A stretch of 64,000 nt of DNA. Source: Escherichia coli (GTDB lineage Bacteria; Pseudomonadota; Gammaproteobacteria; Enterobacterales; Enterobacteriaceae). The translations under genes were made by a program, and so were the position numbers. This document shows, piece after piece, positions 56,079-63,726 of this stretch (position 1 is its first letter; each line of letters begins with the position of its first letter). The DNA is taken from NCBI RefSeq assembly GCF_036507355.1, contig NZ_AP027877.1, one strand, 5' to 3'. The notes under the pieces were generated by a model. The model saw nothing but the letters and a program-made list of their open reading frames with translations, did not search any database and had not been told where the DNA came from.

Positions 56079-56570
56079 TTACGAAAGCCCGCTCCCCGCA
56101 AGGACTGACGCCAGATAGTTTCTGTCCATGGCTGCTTTTCGCATCTTATGTCTTAACCCTGCCTTGAATACCTTATCATTCGTCAAAATATTAATAGCAA
56201 TGTGCCGTATCCCTGGAAATAATTCTGCTGCATTTCCTCTTCTTATTTTGCAGTCGTCTTCATTCATTACCACGTCCAGACGCCAGTGCAGCTTATTCTC
56301 CACGTGCCAGTGGTTTCGGATTGCTGTGGCGAACTTCTCTGCGGTTAAATCAGCAGAACTGATATAATATCTGACCGTCATTTCTGGCTCTTTCTTTTGT
56401 TCTGCTATTATGGACCGAAAGGAGACTGCCACGCATAATTTCTTCAGCCCTTTCCATTCAAACGTGAAATCAATAAGTTCATCAGGAACATCGCAAACAA
56501 TATGAAGACGGATTTCTTCTCTGCCGTGACTAAAATGCGAATTATTTAGTACAAAAAAAGCGGCGCACCT
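56079..56570 (-). pseudogene. ISAs1-family (H-repeat-associated) transposase, 3' remnant
   Basis: translation ...[78 protein letters not shown]... matches C-terminal part of YdcC/YhhI-type H-repeat proteins; upstream part missing (upper limit approximate). Confidence 0.7.
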
Positions 56571-56636: not shown

Positions 56637-57092
56637 TCAGGGGTGACATAAATAGAATTTTTTTTCATCCTCAATTGCCCATAACTGATTAATAAAAAAG
56701 TGTTTTTTATCATCTAATAACAAATCATCACATGTAGTAAAATTATTAATATCAAAAAAATCATCAGCACAATTAATTTTTAAATTTAAAAAATAAAGAA
56801 AAATATTATTGATTGATTTGAGTGTAAACCACTTGTCATTAACAAATTTATAGCCAGATGATTTTATAAAATAATAATTATCTCCTGGTATAAAGGCATA
56901 CATATCATTTAAGGTTATACTCAACAAAAAACTACGACCTGGTTTAATAGTATTCCAGCGTTCAGGATTCGTATTAATTTCAAAAGGACATGAACCACCT
57001 AAGTAGTCCAACGTGATATTCCCAGAGTTGATCCTGGATGGTTTTTTGCATATCGCATCATATTCATCTCCTTTTCCATCTTTTACTTTCAT
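56637..57092 (-). CDS. hypothetical protein, AT-rich; candidate immunity/accessory protein
   Basis: 151-aa ORF; start ATG overlaps stop of upstream ORF (ATGA); no recognisable domain. Confidence 0.4.
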   Translation of the reverse strand: MKVKDGKGDEYDAICKKPSRINSGNITLDYLGGSCPFEINTNPERWNTIKPGRSFLLSITLNDMYAFIPGDNYYFIKSSGYKFVNDKWFTLKSINNIFLYFLNLKINCADDFFDINNFTTCDDLLLDDKKHFFINQLWAIEDEKKFYLCHP

Positions 57093-57379
57093 AGGTAGAT
57101 AATATTTAGAAAAAAATACGTGGTAGAGCTATTGTTAGTAAAGGTTATGTTAGCAAAAATCCTGTTATTTTTTTTACTCATAGCTAATTGAGCATTGACA
57201 TCCGCTATATAATTTATATGATTACATTTTTTCTTACACTCATCATAATTTTCGATAGGATAAATTAATGGCCTTCCTTTGATATCTCTCTCAAGCCCAA
57301 ACCCGTATTTTTTTATTAAAACCATTTCATCCGCAGTCGATTGAAAGGAATAGAAAAATATAATATTTACGATTGTCAT
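57089..57379 (-). CDS. hypothetical small protein, candidate immunity protein for the upstream HExxH toxin
   Basis: 96-aa ORF directly downstream of the metallopeptidase-like gene; hydrophobic N-terminus; AT-rich. Confidence 0.35.
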   Translation of the reverse strand: MTIVNIIFFYSFQSTADEMVLIKKYGFGLERDIKGRPLIYPIENYDECKKKCNHINYIADVNAQLAMSKKNNRIFANITFTNNSSTTYFFLNIIYL

Positions 57380-57431
57380 TATTATGATTTTTTTATAGCT
57401 TGCAGCATTAATATATTTCTCGACTTATTAG

Positions 57432-58223
57432 TTAATGGAGAAGTGTTTTTTCTAATTCCGCTATTTTTTTCTTAACTGAATTGCTTAATATTTCATCATT
57501 AATCGAGTCTATCTCACTTTCAATTAATCTTATTTCAAAATATCTTTCTATGTTATATGCATTCTCAAATATTTGATCTTTTTGTTTAGAGATCAGTTTA
57601 GTTGCAATACGGATATGTTCGTCATATGAAACTTCATCCTCTTTGCACGTTGAATATTTATCAGTAGTTGTATAATCCTGTGACCACATACCACCTTTTT
57701 TATTATCCCCATAATACCACTGAATATGAGACATTTCATGACATAAAGTAGCAACATGAGAATCCTTTCCCGTTACTGGATTTTTTTTGCCATCTCTATA
57801 CTCAAATTTTGCGCCTATGTTAATTATATAGGGCATATCCTTACTTGGGCTGACGAATGCTGCAAATTCATTACAACCTGTATAATTTATAAAACTGCTC
57901 ATTGTTAAATCATTAGCTATAATCATTAATCTTCTCACGCCATCCATCATAAGAAATCTAGCATTCATGCGCCTACCTGTATTATGTCCATATTTTCTTA
58001 TATTAACTTCCTTATTTCCTTTAACACCAAAGATCTTACTGAAATAATATTCCTCCTGTGCTCCCCATCTCAAAAGATCATCTGCTCTTTTTATCAAAAC
58101 CAACTTTTGTGCCTTACGAGCCTTATCAATCATTATTTTAAAATGATCAGTTATTTTTTGCTCTTTCACACATTCTTCTGGCTCTGGCTTTGGTTGTCCA
58201 GAAGTTTGATTATTATCGTCCAT
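57432..58223 (-). CDS. HExxH zinc-metallopeptidase-like putative toxin (orphan effector module)
   Basis: ORF 57432..58280; likely start at Met20 (MDDNNQ..., 58223) with SD ggaagga upstream; motif ATLCHEMSHIQWYYGD (HExxH); very AT-rich; sits in T6SS cargo island. Confidence 0.55.
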   Translation of the reverse strand: MDDNNQTSGQPKPEPEECVKEQKITDHFKIMIDKARKAQKLVLIKRADDLLRWGAQEEYYFSKIFGVKGNKEVNIRKYGHNTGRRMNARFLMMDGVRRLMIIANDLTMSSFINYTGCNEFAAFVSPSKDMPYIINIGAKFEYRDGKKNPVTGKDSHVATLCHEMSHIQWYYGDNKKGGMWSQDYTTTDKYSTCKEDEVSYDEHIRIATKLISKQKDQIFENAYNIERYFEIRLIESEIDSINDEILSNSVKKKIAELEKTLLH

Positions 58224-58410
58224 AGTGTCCTTCCATTGAGAGAAAATCATCATTCGCAAATAGCAACTAAAAAGCAGCATTACTTGACCTTTCCCTGCAT
58301 AACAATATTTATAAAATAATACGTTTTATGATCTCACCTTGGGCTCCCAACAAGATAATTTCAGTTTTAAAGACTTTCACGAAAAAAATATAGAAATACC
58401 TCACCACCCT

Positions 58411-58701
58411 TCACTTACCAATTAATCTCACAGGAAATCCAACTTCCTTACCACAAATACAATCCCAAGTAACACCTCCCAAAATTTTTGATACTTTAGG
58501 CTGCAATGGCATTATTGACATTATAAATTTATCAAGTTCTTCGCTATATTTAATTCCCTTTATATTTCTTATTATTGATATTCTAGCAGTAAAGATAGCC
58601 GTCTCTCCATCTACACTAAAAGTGTAATTACAATTTTTTGTAATCTCATCAAATTCAACCGATAACAAATCAATATTATGGTTTGTAAACACTATGCCCA
58701 T
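58411..58701 (-). CDS. small protein, candidate cognate immunity protein
   Basis: 96-aa ORF whose start overlaps the 3' end of the effector gene by 26 nt; no signal peptide evident. Confidence 0.45.
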   Translation of the reverse strand: MGIVFTNHNIDLLSVEFDEITKNCNYTFSVDGETAIFTARISIIRNIKGIKYSEELDKFIMSIMPLQPKVSKILGGVTWDCICGKEVGFPVRLIGK

Positions 58702-60115
58702 TCCATACCTCCTTAAATTCCTGTTCAGTCATCAGATATCGACTCCCTTGATATGGATCATATATTATCACATTCCCAGCATCATCAACACCCTTAACAA
58801 GTACCCAATGCCCTACTTTACTTCCAGAATCCCACATCATTGCTCCCCATGAACCAGTATTACTGAGGGCATATAAACTAGATTCGCTCACTGCATTCCC
58901 TTCCCAGCCGACATCAAATTTATTAAGCTTGTTTGCCAGCGACGTCATAGATGTTAATTCTGTTCCAATTACATTTTGCGTGACAAAAATATACCTATCC
59001 CTAAGCAACATTTCCCCACAGGCCGCTCCACAGCCTGTTAAAGTCAATTGCTTTATTACATTTGAATCTAAAACCTCATCAAATACTGTCCAATTGCCAC
59101 CAGCACCACCTTCTAAAACTACCGGCTCTACAAATACTTTCCCAGAGATATTTTCTTCTGGTATTTTTGCGGGTATCATAAAGCCCCATAAAAAGCTGGC
59201 AAAATGCTCCAGAGCAATCTGATCACCATTATTTGCATCCATTATCATTTTTTTAAGTGCATCCCATGCTTGCCCATTTATCAATGAATCACTAATATTA
59301 AATAAAGCCTGTTCTTTTTCGTTTAAATTTATATTTGCCTGTTCACATAACCCATCTTCGCCTATCGGGCAAGCAACCGTTGCCGTTGCCGTATCTAACA
59401 GAGCATCGAATGTAACTAAGGCTAAATCCGCCACACCATGTAAAGTGGTGATTGCTCCATTCCCCATTTGAGTAAGTGTGTTCTCTACAAACCATTCTCT
59501 AATTTGAGATTTATCTCCTTCAATATCATTCCTGAGAGATTCTCTGATATTCTTTATTGAAAAAAACTCCCCCCATGATTGGTCAGGATCTTTTATTTGG
59601 AATAAATCATTTTTAACCTCAGGTGAAATATCTCCGTCAAAAATATTACCAACAGAGAGGAGATCCTTCAGAAGCAGTAAATCGTGTATTACTTCAGCAG
59701 TCCTTTCATAATTAAAAGTTCTATCAATGACAGAAATCATTGGTGATTTTATTTTGGTATATAATTTACCAAGGCAGTTATGGTTATTAATCCCAACAAC
59801 TGAACCATGATAAGCGACAGGTCTCCCCTCTATTGTTACAGTCGGACTTCCCGTTAAAATAACGCAGTCACCTGTTCCTTGAGATGTACCAGATATGACA
59901 CCTTTACCGGCATTACTTTGAGTTCCAGCAATCACTGAACCAACATTTAAAGCTCTGCATCCACGCGCCCATACCGTTGAACTGTACTGCCTTTCACTAT
60001 CTAAAGTCTGGTAACTGTCAAAAGGAACCTTGTCACCTCCTACTTCACATACATCTGGTGAAGAGCACACGACTTTAAATCTACATTCACCATCCCCGAT
60101 ATGATAGCTACCCAT
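58676..60115 (-). CDS. T6SS effector candidate: N-terminal PAAR-like (DUF4150-type) domain fused to C-terminal papain/C39-like cysteine peptidase domain
   Basis: 479-aa ORF; N-terminus contains SPDVC and GDCVILTGSPTVTIEGRPVAYHGS segments typical of PAAR-like domains; C-terminus has GCGAACGEML (candidate nucleophile Cys) and GHWVLVKGVDDAGNVIIYDPYQG (His/Asp), the order seen in Peptidase_C39-like/papain-fold domains. Confidence 0.6.
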   Translation of the reverse strand: MGSYHIGDGECRFKVVCSSPDVCEVGGDKVPFDSYQTLDSERQYSSTVWARGCRALNVGSVIAGTQSNAGKGVISGTSQGTGDCVILTGSPTVTIEGRPVAYHGSVVGINNHNCLGKLYTKIKSPMISVIDRTFNYERTAEVIHDLLLLKDLLSVGNIFDGDISPEVKNDLFQIKDPDQSWGEFFSIKNIRESLRNDIEGDKSQIREWFVENTLTQMGNGAITTLHGVADLALVTFDALLDTATATVACPIGEDGLCEQANINLNEKEQALFNISDSLINGQAWDALKKMIMDANNGDQIALEHFASFLWGFMIPAKIPEENISGKVFVEPVVLEGGAGGNWTVFDEVLDSNVIKQLTLTGCGAACGEMLLRDRYIFVTQNVIGTELTSMTSLANKLNKFDVGWEGNAVSESSLYALSNTGSWGAMMWDSGSKVGHWVLVKGVDDAGNVIIYDPYQGSRYLMTEQEFKEVWNGHSVYKP

Positions 60116-60698
60116 AATATTTTTTTCCTATACATTCAGGAATAATACAACTCAGCACTCCTTCTTTCATTCCAAAAAAATCAGGTATTGTCAATCTCCA
60201 GGTAAGGTATATTTCCTGTCGATTTAAATCGATAACCATTGTATCCGCAACAGGTAAGAACATATGAGATGTATTATGCTTGGTTTTTAATATAAGTACA
60301 GGTCGTATACCTGGCAATTTTGTCTTAACAACCTGTTCAAATTTAAAAAAACCTTCAAGAGTGATGTTTTCATCGCCAGAGAGAAACCCCGCGTATATCA
60401 TATCCGGATGAGCACTATTGTAGAACCTCTCATCAAAATCATCCGGCAAATAGGGATAGCGCTTTTCACGCCATACTTCATTGTAGGTTCCTGCATACTG
60501 GAGGCGACTTTTCCACCATCGAGATACAGGGCCAACGCCTTGAAAAAAGTCAGATTCCCCATTAAAAATGGTAGCGTTTTCTGACAAAGCAGAGCTGGTT
60601 ATTTGTGGGAGTTTATATTGACAACTTGTATTAAGTTGGGAAATATCAGGATAATATCCACAACCTACAGGGTTTGCTGAAAAAACCAATTTTCCCAT
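60108..60698 (-). CDS. hypothetical protein, possibly 5'-truncated adaptor (DUF2169-like) for the downstream PAAR-like effector
   Basis: 196-aa ORF between vgrG and the PAAR-like effector; frame stays open upstream of the annotated Met without a start; assignment by gene-order analogy only. Confidence 0.3.
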   Translation of the reverse strand: MGKLVFSANPVGCGYYPDISQLNTSCQYKLPQITSSALSENATIFNGESDFFQGVGPVSRWWKSRLQYAGTYNEVWREKRYPYLPDDFDERFYNSAHPDMIYAGFLSGDENITLEGFFKFEQVVKTKLPGIRPVLILKTKHNTSHMFLPVADTMVIDLNRQEIYLTWRLTIPDFFGMKEGVLSCIIPECIGKKYYG

Positions 60699-61517
60699 AC
60701 CATCTGGTTGCCAAATACCACCGTAAGCAAGCTCATAGCGTAGAGGAATATTAATAATTTTATCGTGAGATGCTGATCGTTCGCTACCACAATCTTCTGA
60801 TCATGACTGCCTTCCTTCTTACTCCCAACATTCACCGTCTGACCCACACCCACCGTAATTTTCTGGTTATTGGTTATGGTTTCCGTGTGGTCGTGTTTCA
60901 CCGTCGTCGTCCGGTCATTCAGCACCTCCGTATCCATGTTCTTCTGCGCATGGATATACACCTGCTCATTACTGGTGGCGTCTTCAAACCGCAGCTCGTT
61001 AAATCCGCTTCCTTTATAGGTTTTTGACCGGATGGTCATCTGCGTCTTCGTTCCCGGCAGGTCGCCCGGCGAACGGTTGTCCTCATGGTAGGTCCGCCCC
61101 ATGATTATCGGCTGGTCCGGGTCGCCGTTCAGAAAATCAACAATCACCTCCTGGCCCACCCGCGGTATCGCCAGGTTACCGAACCCCGGCCCCGCCCACG
61201 CCTGCGATACCCGCACCCAGCATGAACTCGCCTCCGTCATCCCGTGATAACGGTCCCAGTGGAACTTCACCCGTACCCGGCCATGTTCATCGCAGAAGAT
61301 TTCCTCTCCCGCAGGCCCGGTGACAATGGCACTCTGCGGCCCGTCCACCTTCGGTTTGCTTTGCAGCCGTGGACGCCACGTCCGGTCCGCCGGTATCACC
61401 TCTAACTGATTTCCCAGCGTGGTTCCTCTCCCTTGGCTGCCGTGCAGCGCCTGCGGCTGGTTTCCTGACAGAATGCTCTGTACCACCTGCCATTCACGGT
61501 TCAGCATCTTCTGCGGA
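60665..61517 (-). pseudogene. vgrG: vgrG (T6SS spike), distal part, downstream of IS insertion; 3' end abruptly AT-rich
   Basis: translation ...PQKMLNREWQVVQSILSGNQPQALHGSQGRGTTLGNQLEVIPADRTWRPRLQSKPKVDGPQSAIVTGPAGEEIFCDEHGRVRVKFHWDR... (gp5-like region); continues the reading frame of the proximal part across the insertion. Confidence 0.85.
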
Positions 61518-61560
61518 TGAGGTGTACTGGCAATAGCGGACACTACCATTTGTTCTTTTT

Positions 61561-62379
61561 TTAAGCAGCCATCTGATGATATTTTTCCCTGAAGGCTGCC
61601 GGGGAGATATTCCCCAGACGAGAGTGACGACGCTGACGATTGTAGAAAATCTCAATGTATTCCCGTATTACTGAGATGGCTTCATCCCGGTTATTAAAAC
61701 GATAGTGGCTCAGGCTCTCATTTTTCAGCGTTCCCCAGAAGCTTTCCATCGGAGCGTTGTCGTAACAGTTACCTTTACGCGACATTGATGTTTTCAGACC
61801 AAACTGCTCCTGTATGACCCGGTAATCGTATGCGCAGTACTGTGAACCTCGATCAGAGTGGTGGATTAGCCCGGCAGGTGGGCGCTGTCTCCTGAGCGCC
61901 ATAAACAGGGCTTTACCTGTCAGCTCTTTTGTCATGCGCTCTCCCATGGCGTAGCCGACAATTTCGCACGTATAAACATCTTTGATGCCAGCGAGGTACA
62001 ACCATCCCTCCTGTGTGGCAACATACGTCAGGTCCGCCACCCAGACCTGATTTGGTGCTGTAGGAGCGAACGTCTGGTTCAGCAGATTTGGCGCAACTGG
62101 CAGATTGTGGTTCGAGTTCGTAGTCGCTCTGAACTTGCGTTTCTGCTTACAGCGTAGCCTTAGCTCCTTACGAAGACGTGCCAGTCGGTCACGACCAACG
62201 ATGATGCCATTCTCTGCCAGCTCCGTCTGGAGCCGCCGGGTTCCATATGTTTCGCGAGTGCGGATATGTGCCACCTTAATCTCCAGTTTTAGCCGCTCAT
62301 CACTTTGTTTTCTGTCTGAGGGTTCATGCTGTACCCAGTTGTAATAACCGCTCCTGGATACACCAAATACCTGACACAT
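61561..62379 (-). CDS. IS3-family transposase OrfB (DDE integrase domain; expressed as OrfAB by -1 frameshift)
   Basis: 272-aa ORF with DDE-type region (...VWVADLTYV...HHSDRGSQY...CYDNAPMESFW...). Confidence 0.85.
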   Translation of the reverse strand: MCQVFGVSRSGYYNWVQHEPSDRKQSDERLKLEIKVAHIRTRETYGTRRLQTELAENGIIVGRDRLARLRKELRLRCKQKRKFRATTNSNHNLPVAPNLLNQTFAPTAPNQVWVADLTYVATQEGWLYLAGIKDVYTCEIVGYAMGERMTKELTGKALFMALRRQRPPAGLIHHSDRGSQYCAYDYRVIQEQFGLKTSMSRKGNCYDNAPMESFWGTLKNESLSHYRFNNRDEAISVIREYIEIFYNRQRRHSRLGNISPAAFREKYHQMAA

Positions 62380-62414
62380 CGCTTCAATGGGAAATTGTTG
62401 TCGCCATTGTTCGA

Positions 62415-62717
62415 TTAACGCGTATTTTTCAGCGACTCCTGTGCAAAATACGCTGTTGCTTTTTTTAATATATCTCGCTCAAGGCGAGCTTCATTTAACG
62501 CCTTACGCAGTTGCAGAATTTCAGATTCCAGTTCAGCCACCGTGCGGGAACCAGGAGTACCGAGCCCTTTTCTGGCGGCGGTAACCCATTGTCCTAAAGT
62601 GCCTTCAGGAAGAGATAATCGGGAAGCGCCTTCACTGATCGAAAGTTGATTTTCAAGAACCGTTCTGACAGCTTCGGCTTTGAACTCTTTAGAGTAACGT
62701 TGGGTTTTTCTGCTCAT
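62415..62717 (-). CDS. IS3-family transposase OrfA (HTH)
   Basis: 100-aa ORF MSRKTQRYSKEFKAEAVRTVLENQLSISEGASRLSLPEGTLGQW...; slippery heptamer at about 62449-62456 near its 3' end. Confidence 0.85.
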   Translation of the reverse strand: MSRKTQRYSKEFKAEAVRTVLENQLSISEGASRLSLPEGTLGQWVTAARKGLGTPGSRTVAELESEILQLRKALNEARLERDILKKATAYFAQESLKNTR

Positions 62718-62781
62718 TATTAGCTCCTTCTGATGCCATTCTATTTCAGGAAGGAGTGTCCGTTAAACTCAGGCTACCTCA

Positions 62782-63707
62782 GGATGCCCCGTCAGCGTAA
62801 ACCGCGTTCCCGGCCACAGCCTCGGCGAATTACTCTGCCCTGTGGCCTTTTCCGCATCACTGCGCAGGCTCTCCATCTGGTACAGCGTGAAATCCTTGCC
62901 GTGCTGCTCATCCTTGAACCTTCCCGGATAATCAAATATTTCATACTGCGCCAGCTGTCCGTTCAGGTTCTCACCCTGCTGCTCATACATCCCCGGCCAG
63001 TCCGGCACCTTAAACGTGTAATCCTGGCTCTGCACCGACGACGGGCGGACATGCGCCTCATAACGGAACATACTGAGACACTCCGTCTCCGCTCCTGCCG
63101 ATGTGTCCGGGTTAAACGGAAGCTCTCCCGCCTGTGACAGCCCCGCCACATCGTCGCACAGCGTCAGCTTCTGCTCCGGACTGTCCGCCGCAAACCGCTC
63201 AAAGAAGAAAATTCCCTCCTCCGCCCACAGCCGGGACAGAAACGCCAGGTCGCTTTCCCCGTACTGGACACAGAACTCCCGCGCCGGATGGTCCTCATAA
63301 AACAGCGGCGTCCACTCCGTGACGCCGTTCTCGTTCAGTAACGTGGCCGATATCGTCCGGATATCCTGCTGCTGGAAGATACGGAAGTTCTGCCGCAGCC
63401 CGCACCGCCATAACGGCGGCTCAATACGCAGGTGATAACGCATCTGCCAGCCGTTATTCTCCTGCATACCAAAACCCGCCACCACGCCGGTGACATAACG
63501 CTGCGCCACTGCGCCCTGCCAGATGGTCAGCGTCGCCTTCTTCTCCAGCAGCATCTCCGCCGTCTGCATAAAAGAGTCGCTGGCAACATCCACACTCATC
63601 ACAAACGGATATGACTGGCTCTGGATTAACCGGAAGCTCACCACTGCAAAGGTGTCCGGCTCCTGGCCGTCAACCTCCAGCGTAAAGCGAAGACCTTTTA
63701 ATGACAT
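62782..63707 (-). pseudogene. vgrG: vgrG (T6SS spike), proximal part (gp27-like), upstream of IS insertion
   Basis: MSLKGLRFTLEVDGQEPDTFAVVSFRLIQSQS... typical VgrG N-terminus; reading frame runs into the IS end (adds EVA then stop). Confidence 0.85.
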
Positions 63708-63726
63708 AAATACCTCTCAGACATAT

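What the first reader, a model, noticed from the sequence alone, without database searches (positions are those of the whole stretch)
60108..60830. Abrupt composition switch and frame overlap at the vgrG 3' end: recombination junction between spike gene and cargo cassette
The GC-rich vgrG body changes to AT-rich sequence around 60.79-60.83 kb. The VgrG frame then runs about 40 codons through low-complexity hydrophobic sequence (…KLLIFLYAMSLLTVVFGNQMVWENWFFQQTL) to a stop. A second frame is open across the same region with no start codon until the Met at 60698, and encodes the 196-aa protein. This looks like a 5'-truncated adaptor gene (by position analogous to DUF2169 genes that precede DUF4150 effectors) recombined into the vgrG 3' variable region, shortening VgrG to about 590 aa.
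Basis: inference. Interest (0 to 1): 0.6.

Follow-up and report, generated by a model that had tools for sequence, protein, structure and literature searches.

The report
Deletion-fused, decayed T6SS spike–adaptor genes
An 0.8-kb deletion has joined the end of a type VI secretion spike gene (vgrG) to the middle of its chaperone gene (DUF2169), leaving two broken genes; this is ordinary gene decay in one E. coli lineage.

Summary
All genes here are on the minus strand.

- **The deletion.** Compared with intact E. coli loci (strains PapRG-04-4 and A30), the window lacks 802-803 bp. The missing DNA is the last 99 codons of vgrG, the 106-bp intergenic spacer and the first 130 codons of the DUF2169 chaperone gene.
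- **The junction.** The breakpoints share the 7-bp microhomology GATAAAA (window 60758-60764). Random breakpoint pairs reach 7 bp or more with P = 5e-4.
- **The consequences.** The deletion is out of frame. VgrG reads 30 nonsense codons of DUF2169 DNA before a stop. The DUF2169 frame has no start codon until internal Met153, which gives the 196-aa ORF. Its extended translation matches only positions 111-294 of the 294-position Pfam DUF2169 model.
- **A second lesion.** vgrG is also split by a 1264-bp IS3-family element (61518-62781, 3-bp target duplication).
- **The composition switch.** The GC drop is native to intact loci and was not created by the deletion.
- **Distribution.** The junction recurs in 10 of 10 independent assemblies checked that carry the 196-aa ORF. 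It is absent from 5,426 complete E. coli genomes, where 299 of the 300 that carry the gene are undisrupted at the one site tested.
- **What survives.** The downstream PAAR-like/C39-like effector and its putative immunity gene remain intact.

The parts
63726..64000 (-). PAAR gene upstream of vgrG; its first ~10 nt lie beyond the window end
   Evidence: Collinear at 97% with L012 20241-20525, annotated 'type VI secretion system PAAR protein'.
62782..63707 (-). vgrG 5' portion (codons 1 to ~309), ending at the IS insertion site. 62782-62784 (GGA) is one copy of the target-site duplication.
   Evidence: ORF; 97% identical to vgrG of L012 and L001; boundaries.
61518..62781 (-). 1264-bp IS3-family insertion sequence inside vgrG. 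orfA is 62415-62717 and orfB is 61561-62379. The ends are TG...CA and the 3-bp duplication GGA lies at 61515-61517 and 62782-62784.
   Evidence: Sequence at the boundaries compared with uninterrupted L012. NCBIfam NF033516 transpos_IS3 scores 336 bits for orfB against a cut-off of 160.
60765..61517 (-). vgrG 3' portion, corresponding to codons ~310-561 of the 660-aa intact protein. It covers the OB domain and the first part of the gp5-like beta-helix.
   Evidence: 92.5-93.3% nt identity to intact vgrG; protein alignment; domain map of the intact VgrG.
60758..60764 (-). Deletion junction: the single retained copy of the 7-bp microhomology GATAAAA. It is present once in vgrG and once in DUF2169 of intact loci.
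   Evidence: Three-way alignment; 803 bp separate the two copies in L012; P(>=7 bp) = 5e-4.
60665..60757 (-). Non-native VgrG tail: 30 codons plus stop, produced by reading DUF2169 DNA in the wrong frame
   Evidence: The DNA is 98.8% identical to the intact DUF2169 gene.
60108..60764 (-). 5'-truncated DUF2169 (T6SS chaperone/adaptor) gene remnant, corresponding to codons 131-348. The first possible start is internal Met153 at 60698, which gives the 196-aa ORF.
   Evidence: Pfam PF09937, HMM positions 111-294 of 294, E = 1.3e-45; alignment to the 348-aa homologue.
58676..60115 (-). Intact 479-aa effector with an N-terminal PAAR-like (DUF4150/PIPY) domain and a C-terminal peptidase-C39-like domain. 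Its start overlaps the DUF2169 stop.
   Evidence: Same length as the PapRG-04-4 protein and collinear with it, in a cargo block 98.8% identical at the nucleotide level. Precomputed Pfam PF13665, PF03412 (weak) and PF13529 (faint).
58411..58701 (-). 96-aa ORF overlapping the effector stop; putative cognate immunity gene (assigned by position only)
   Evidence: Conserved in L012, L013 and all lineage contigs. No family hit.

Best explanation
The ancestor carried an intact orphan T6SS module: PAAR, vgrG (about 660 aa), DUF2169 chaperone (348 aa), PAAR-like/C39-like effector, immunity gene. It sat in the yncG-pptA island. A single RecA-independent, microhomology-mediated deletion occurred between two GATAAAA heptamers and removed about 803 bp. 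The lost DNA comprises the last 99 codons of vgrG, the intergenic spacer with the DUF2169 ribosome-binding site and start codon, and DUF2169 codons 1-130. Because 803 is not a multiple of three, the result is not a fusion protein. VgrG ends in 30 nonsense residues and lacks the end of its beta-helix and its C-terminal tail. The DUF2169 frame is left without a start until Met153.

Shown here: the deletion, its endpoints, the frames, the domain truncation, and the recurrence of the junction in a lineage.

Inferred:
- Both products are non-functional. The DUF2169 fold is one continuous three-sheet double beta-sandwich, and about 40% of it is lost.
- PAAR and PAAR-like proteins cap the distal end of the VgrG beta-helix, which is gone.
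- The intact downstream effector therefore cannot be loaded by this locus.

A separate IS3-family insertion splits vgrG at about codon 310. The locus is a decaying vgrG island.
For: - **Collinearity.** Both flanks align up to the junction with intact loci: L001 6001-6762 and 7558-9158, L012 18540-19301 and 13050-17743.
- **Junction.** Base-level alignment shows the shared GATAAAA, with the 33 nt on the vgrG side identical to A30. Random breakpoints give 7 bp or more of microhomology at P = 5e-4.
- **VgrG.** Native sequence stops at K561 of 660. The breakpoint lies inside the second Gp5_trimer_C match, residues 545-603.
- **DUF2169.** The remnant matches HMM positions 111-294 only, against 7-294 in the intact homologue.
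- **Real, not artefact.** The junction 41-mer is present in 10 of 10 contigs from other samples. L002 runs 75 bp into the same IS and L004 starts exactly at the IS boundary.
- **Rare.** No complete E. coli genome holds the junction. 299 of 300 genomes carrying this gene lack the +T frameshift at the one 59-nt site tested.
- **Function from the literature.** DUF2169 is required for PAAR-like (PIPY) domains to form a spike complex with VgrG, and it has a single novel beta-sandwich fold (PMC11883445).
Against: - No pre-deletion ancestor with the same vgrG allele was found. A patch of about 135 nt just upstream of the junction (60790-60925) is about 20% divergent from every E. coli vgrG. The ancestral vgrG was therefore not identical to the intact comparators.
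- Loss of function is inferred, not tested.
- The remnant retains the region homologous to the PIPY-binding loop of the solved structure.
- The effector and immunity genes are still intact.
Confidence: 0.93

Rival explanations
1. Cassette exchange: an incoming cargo cassette carrying an already truncated adaptor recombined into the 3' variable region of a different resident vgrG. On this view the junction is a module boundary, not an internal deletion.
For: - vgrG loci are known to recombine within vgrG, and GC% shifts inside vgrG have been used as evidence for this (PMC8546570).
- The vgrG side (92.5%) and the cargo side (98.8%) differ in divergence from PapRG-04-4.
- A highly divergent patch abuts the junction.
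Against: - The two sides join at non-homologous positions that share only 7 bp. Homologous cassette exchange would give an in-register vgrG.
- The 33 nt of vgrG immediately before the junction are identical to the DUF2169-linked vgrG of A30.
- The best matches of the divergent patch are still the DUF2169-linked vgrG alleles.
- The product is out of frame.
Confidence: 0.04
2. Functional rearrangement. Either the 196-aa C-terminal half of DUF2169 is a working short chaperone, or a -1 slip on the A-AAA run at the junction yields a VgrG(1-561)-DUF2169(132-348) fusion that carries the effector.
For: - The remnant retains the region corresponding to the PIPY-binding loop, residues 195-232 of the solved homologue.
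- The DUF2169 frame is -1 relative to the VgrG frame. Lys codon AAA at the junction is preceded by A, so the tRNA could re-pair in the -1 frame (read directly from the sequence).
- The effector and immunity genes are intact.
Against: - vgrG is interrupted by an IS upstream.
- There is no Shine-Dalgarno-like sequence before ATG 60698.
- A four-A run is a very weak slippery site, with no evident stimulator.
- The DUF2169 fold is a single interleaved beta-sandwich, so a C-terminal half is unlikely to fold.
- 299 of 300 genomes with this gene lack the frameshift at the site tested.
Confidence: 0.02
3. Assembly or sequencing artefact: a collapsed or chimeric join in one assembly.
For: vgrG paralogues are repeats that confuse assemblers. 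Several short-read contigs break at about 60950.
Against: The identical junction 41-mer occurs in 10 independent contigs. They come from isolate assemblies, Logan read-set assemblies and ENA metagenome assemblies.
Confidence: 0.01

Closest known systems
vgrG - DUF2169 - DUF4150 (PAAR-like/PIPY) effector modules of T6SS, e.g. A. tumefaciens vgrG2-tap2 and V. parahaemolyticus VP1398/VP1415 (PMC11883445; PMC8546570)
   Same: Same gene order and families as the intact E. coli relatives: PAAR, VgrG, DUF2169, PAAR-like effector, small downstream ORF. The DUF2169 stop overlaps the effector start.
   Different: In the window the module is broken. VgrG lacks its last 99 residues and is split by an IS. 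DUF2169 lacks its first 130 codons and its start.
Intact homologous loci in E. coli PapRG-04-4 (NZ_CP049201.1) and A30 (NZ_CP028745.1), in the same yncG-pptA chromosomal site
   Same: The cargo is 97-98.8% identical. The chromosomal flanks match (narU..pptA on one side, yncG/ansP on the other). PapRG-04-4 has the same 479-aa effector.
   Different: They carry 802-803 bp more at the junction and have no IS in vgrG. They also have a different allele of the last ~135 nt of vgrG that the window retains before the junction.
Frameshifted DUF2169 in E. coli NRG 857C (CP001855 / NC_017634)
   Same: Independent inactivation of the same chaperone gene. The disruption lies within about 10 nt of the window's breakpoint, and the gene is split into 131-aa and 202-aa ORFs.
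   Different: The cause is a single extra T (CTT to CTTT), not a deletion. vgrG is intact there, and the module sits in the main T6SS cluster next to hcp and tssBC. It is found in 1 of 300 complete genomes.

Membership tests
DUF2169 T6SS accessory/chaperone protein (Pfam PF09937) | Match across the whole family model (about 294 positions) | tested here: not met
   Only HMM positions 111-294 are matched, beginning at the junction. The intact homologue matches 7-294. The window therefore holds a remnant of a member, not an intact member.
DUF2169 T6SS accessory/chaperone protein (Pfam PF09937) | Genetic linkage to vgrG upstream and a DUF4150/PIPY-domain gene downstream | tested here: met
   vgrG is immediately upstream. 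The downstream 479-aa protein carries PF13665 Tox-PAAR-like.
DUF2169 T6SS accessory/chaperone protein (Pfam PF09937) | Own start codon and N-terminal beta-sheets of the single-domain double beta-sandwich fold (PDB 8VTH) | tested here: not met
   No ATG, GTG or TTG before Met153. Residues 1-130 are deleted. Fold description from PMC11883445. 8VTH matches the intact homologue over residues 54-281.
VgrG/TssI spike protein | Continuous gp27-like (Phage_GPD), OB (Phage_base_V) and gp5-like beta-helix domains with a complete distal end for PAAR / PAAR-like capping | tested here: not met
   The intact relative has Phage_GPD at 34-328, Phage_base_V at 385-451, and Gp5_trimer_C at 468-542 and 545-603. 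The window copy is cut by the IS at about codon 310 and ends native sequence at residue 561.
PAAR-like (DUF4150/PIPY) polymorphic effector | N-terminal PF13665 domain with a C-terminal toxin domain, followed by a small immunity ORF | tested here: met
   PF13665 plus a weak Peptidase_C39 hit on the 479-aa protein (precomputed). The 96-aa ORF overlaps its stop. Toxin activity and immunity were not tested.
IS3-family insertion sequence | Two overlapping transposase ORFs, TG...CA termini and a 3-bp target duplication | tested here: met
   NF033516 scores 336 bits against a cut-off of 160 for orfB, and the orfA N-terminal part also matches. The element is 1264 bp with ends TGAGG...CCTCA and duplication GGA.

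The most novel reading that the evidence does not exclude
The locus may not be dead. On this reading, the lineage keeps the intact PAAR-like/C39-like effector and its immunity gene because the effector is still delivered in trans, by another VgrG and DUF2169 encoded elsewhere. Alternatively the 196-aa remnant, which retains the PIPY-binding loop region, still stabilises the effector. Deletion of the cognate spike end would then be a way to re-route or silence a toxin while keeping immunity.
Probability: 0.05. Interest if true: 0.35.

Novelty: already known. Interest (0 to 1): 0.12.

Why it matters
It matters little beyond annotation. The 294-aa and 196-aa 'hypothetical proteins' deposited for this genome (BED22488.1, BED22487.1) are fragments of two pseudogenes and should be annotated as such. 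The case is a clean example of a microhomology-mediated deletion plus an IS insertion eroding an orphan T6SS vgrG island while the toxin and putative immunity genes persist. It also shows that the GC drop inside vgrG is a standing feature of these modular loci, not a marker of this particular event.

Tried and rejected
- **Search for the junction elsewhere.** A GTDB species-representative scan with the junction 41-mer found nothing. No complete E. coli genome holds it. The lineage is simply not in those collections. It was found through exact-protein look-up instead.
- **Search for a pre-deletion ancestor.** I queried the large protein database with VgrG residues 443-561. Only short, partial VgrG fragments came back, the best at 90% identity, so this was uninformative.
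- **Mutational hotspot idea.** NRG 857C has a +T frameshift about 10 nt from the window's breakpoint, which suggested the site might be a hotspot. I rejected this as a general phenomenon, because only 1 of 300 complete genomes has it.
- **Other vgrG copies as a donor.** I looked in the window for another vgrG copy that could have donated the divergent patch and found none.
- **NCBIfam.** It gave no hits for the remnant, the effector or the small ORFs.
- **In-frame fusion.** My first estimate of 795 bp suggested a possible in-frame fusion. Counting one copy of the microhomology gives 802-803 bp, which is out of frame and agrees with the two observed frames.

Full report
**What is in the sequence.**

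All relevant genes lie on the minus strand. Reading from 64000 downwards:
- a PAAR gene, cut by the window end;
- a 312-aa ORF that is the N-terminal half of VgrG (62769-63707);
- two transposase ORFs (62415-62717 and 61561-62379);
- a 294-aa ORF that is the C-terminal part of VgrG (60665-61549);
- the 196-aa ORF of the finding (60108-60698), which overlaps the previous ORF by 34 nt;
- a 479-aa ORF (58676-60115);
- a 96-aa ORF (58411-58701).

The VgrG frame continues as ...DQHLTIK LLIFLYAMSLLTVVFGNQMVWENWFFQQTL* to a stop at 60665. A second frame is open from 60797 and reads ...HDKIINIPLRYELAYGGIWQPDGMGKLVF..., with no ATG, GTG or TTG before the Met at 60698. GC falls from about 0.6 to under 0.4 between roughly 61000 and 60750.

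**Intact relatives define the event.**

A megablast search of 60000-61560 against 5,426 complete E. coli genomes gave best hits in two pieces that span 2.3 kb rather than 1.5 kb. In strain A30 (L001) and strain PapRG-04-4 (L012) the same chromosomal site lies between pptA/ISAs1 and yncG/ansP. There it carries PAAR, vgrG (649 or 660 aa), DUF2169 (348 aa; 349 codons with the stop), a PAAR-like effector and a small ORF. PapRG-04-4 has the same 479-aa effector.

- Window 61519-60758 aligns to vgrG, and window 60764-59164 aligns to DUF2169 from its codon 131 onward and into the effector.
- The two alignments overlap by 7 nt. The base-level view shows CTCAC-GATAAAA-AATGACC in vgrG and TTACCA-GATAAAA-TTATTAAT in DUF2169, with one copy retained in the window at 60758-60764.
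- Relative to PapRG-04-4, 803 bp are missing (802 relative to A30). That is 99 vgrG codons plus the stop, 106 bp of spacer and 390 nt of DUF2169.
- Random breakpoint pairs, one in each gene, show 7 nt or more of microhomology with P = 5e-4. This is the signature of a microhomology-mediated, RecA-independent deletion.
- Because 803 is not divisible by three, each frame runs into the other gene's DNA out of register. That explains both the hydrophobic nonsense tail and the start-less open frame.

**Domain-level consequences.**

- The extended second-frame translation matches Pfam DUF2169 at E = 1.3e-45, but only model positions 111-294 of 294, starting at the residue encoded by the junction. The intact homologue matches positions 7-294.
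- After the IS is removed in silico, VgrG is 591 aa. It is native up to K561 of 660. In the intact protein the breakpoint lies inside the second Gp5_trimer_C repeat match (545-603), and all of 604-660 is lost.
- The one solved DUF2169 structure (8VTH; matched by the intact homologue) is a single fold. Three antiparallel sheets form two sandwiches that share one long sheet (PMC11883445). I infer that a protein lacking the first 130-152 residues is unlikely to fold.
- The same paper shows that PAAR-like (PIPY) domains need their cognate DUF2169 to form a functional spike with VgrG.
- From my own knowledge, not read here: the VgrG C-terminus determines effector and adaptor specificity and binds PAAR (Bondage et al. 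2016, PNAS). One search shows only that this title is cited in 92 held papers.
- I therefore infer that both genes are pseudogenes and that this locus can no longer load its effector.

**A second, independent lesion.**

Comparison with the uninterrupted vgrG shows a 1264-bp element at 61518-62781. It has TG...CA ends and a 3-bp duplication, GGA. Its ORFs match the IS3-family transposase model at 336 bits against a cut-off of 160.

**Is it real, and how common is it?**

- The exact 196-aa and 294-aa proteins exist in GenBank as hypothetical proteins BED22487.1 and BED22488.1 of an E. coli chromosome of 4.64 Mb.
- The 196-aa sequence occurs on 14 contigs. All 10 that were fetched came from isolate, Logan and ENA metagenome assemblies. 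All 10 contain the junction 41-mer and are 99.7-100% identical to the window.
- One of these contigs runs 75 bp into the same IS and another begins exactly at its boundary.
- The junction is therefore a genuine allele of a circulating lineage, not an artefact.
- It is absent from all 5,426 complete E. coli genomes and from GTDB species representatives.
- The 5' part of DUF2169 that is deleted here is present in 300 complete genomes. 299 of them lack the frameshift at the site tested.

**The composition switch.**

In the intact PapRG-04-4 locus, GC is 0.59 over the first 1500 nt of vgrG and 0.44 over the last 483 nt. It is 0.37 in DUF2169 and 0.39 in the effector, and the deleted segment itself is 0.37. 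The switch is therefore a standing property of the module: a conserved GC-rich spike core joined to an AT-rich variable C-terminus and cargo. That agrees with published views that recombination within vgrG swaps downstream modules (PMC8546570). The deletion removed DNA that was already AT-rich and merely sharpened the transition.

**Loose end.**

The roughly 135 nt of vgrG just upstream of the junction (about 60790-60925) differ by about 20% from every E. coli vgrG. The best match over 226 nt is 86%. Across 61120-60758, compared with PapRG-04-4, 25 differing codons are synonymous and 9 are non-synonymous. The 33 nt abutting the junction are identical to A30. This looks like an old allelic or gene-conversion patch that evolved under purifying selection, not decay. 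No intact carrier of this allele was found. This leaves a small residual probability that the vgrG partner was not a PapRG-04-4-like allele. The best matches of the patch are nevertheless the DUF2169-linked vgrG genes.

**Verdict.**

This is an ordinary microhomology-mediated deletion plus an IS insertion that pseudogenised a T6SS spike gene and its chaperone gene in one E. coli lineage. The effector and putative immunity genes were left intact. Nothing here departs from known biology, so interest is low.

Noticed in passing
window 61518-62781: A 1264-bp IS3-family element is inserted in vgrG at about codon 310, with the 3-bp target duplication GGA. It is the second, independent disruption of the spike gene. 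At least two other assemblies of the lineage share it (L002, L004).
   Followed up: yes
window 60790-60925: This patch of vgrG is about 20% divergent at the nucleotide level from every vgrG in 5,426 complete E. coli genomes. The best match over 226 nt is 86%. Differences from PapRG-04-4 across 61120-60758 are mostly synonymous (25 synonymous and 9 non-synonymous codons). The flanks are 95% or more identical, so this is probably an old gene-conversion or allelic mosaic. The donor was not found.
   Followed up: partly
L013 4946-4948 (E. coli NRG 857C, CP001855): The same DUF2169 gene is independently inactivated by one extra T (GAGCTT to GAGCTTT) about 10 nt upstream of the window's breakpoint. 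The gene is split into 131-aa and 202-aa ORFs. Only 1 of 300 complete genomes carries this change.
   Followed up: yes
L013 1-7306 versus window 58411-64000: The same vgrG - DUF2169 - PAAR-like/C39 - 96-aa module lies inside the main T6SS cluster (next to hcp and tssB/tssC) in NRG 857C. In the window, A30 and PapRG-04-4 it lies in an orphan island between yncG and pptA. The module is evidently mobile between sites.
   Followed up: partly
window 56637-58280: A very AT-rich block (GC 0.20-0.35) downstream of the first module holds three ORFs. One is an intact 282-aa ORF (57432-58280) with an HEMSH motif; its homologue in PapRG-04-4 is annotated 'peptidase M35' and is frameshifted there. The other two are small ORFs (57089-57379 and 56637-57092). 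This may be a second orphan effector-immunity set. No NCBIfam hits were found.
   Followed up: partly
window 56079-56432: A 117-aa ORF matches the C-terminal end of the ISAs1-family transposase model (NF033564, 101 bits). It is a remnant that bounds the island, as in PapRG-04-4 and A30.
   Followed up: partly
L001 10372-13395 (E. coli A30): The A30 island carries a second, 5'-truncated vgrG fragment followed by an M23 metallopeptidase gene. This is an array-like arrangement of displaced vgrG 3' ends with cargo. The fragment is 82% identical to window 61080-60761.
   Followed up: no
window ~60950 (contig starts of L003, L005-L009, L011): Seven independent short-read contigs begin within 6 nt of 60950. 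This implies that vgrG sequence upstream of this point is repeated elsewhere in those genomes, as other vgrG paralogues. The divergent patch downstream appears to be unique.
   Followed up: no
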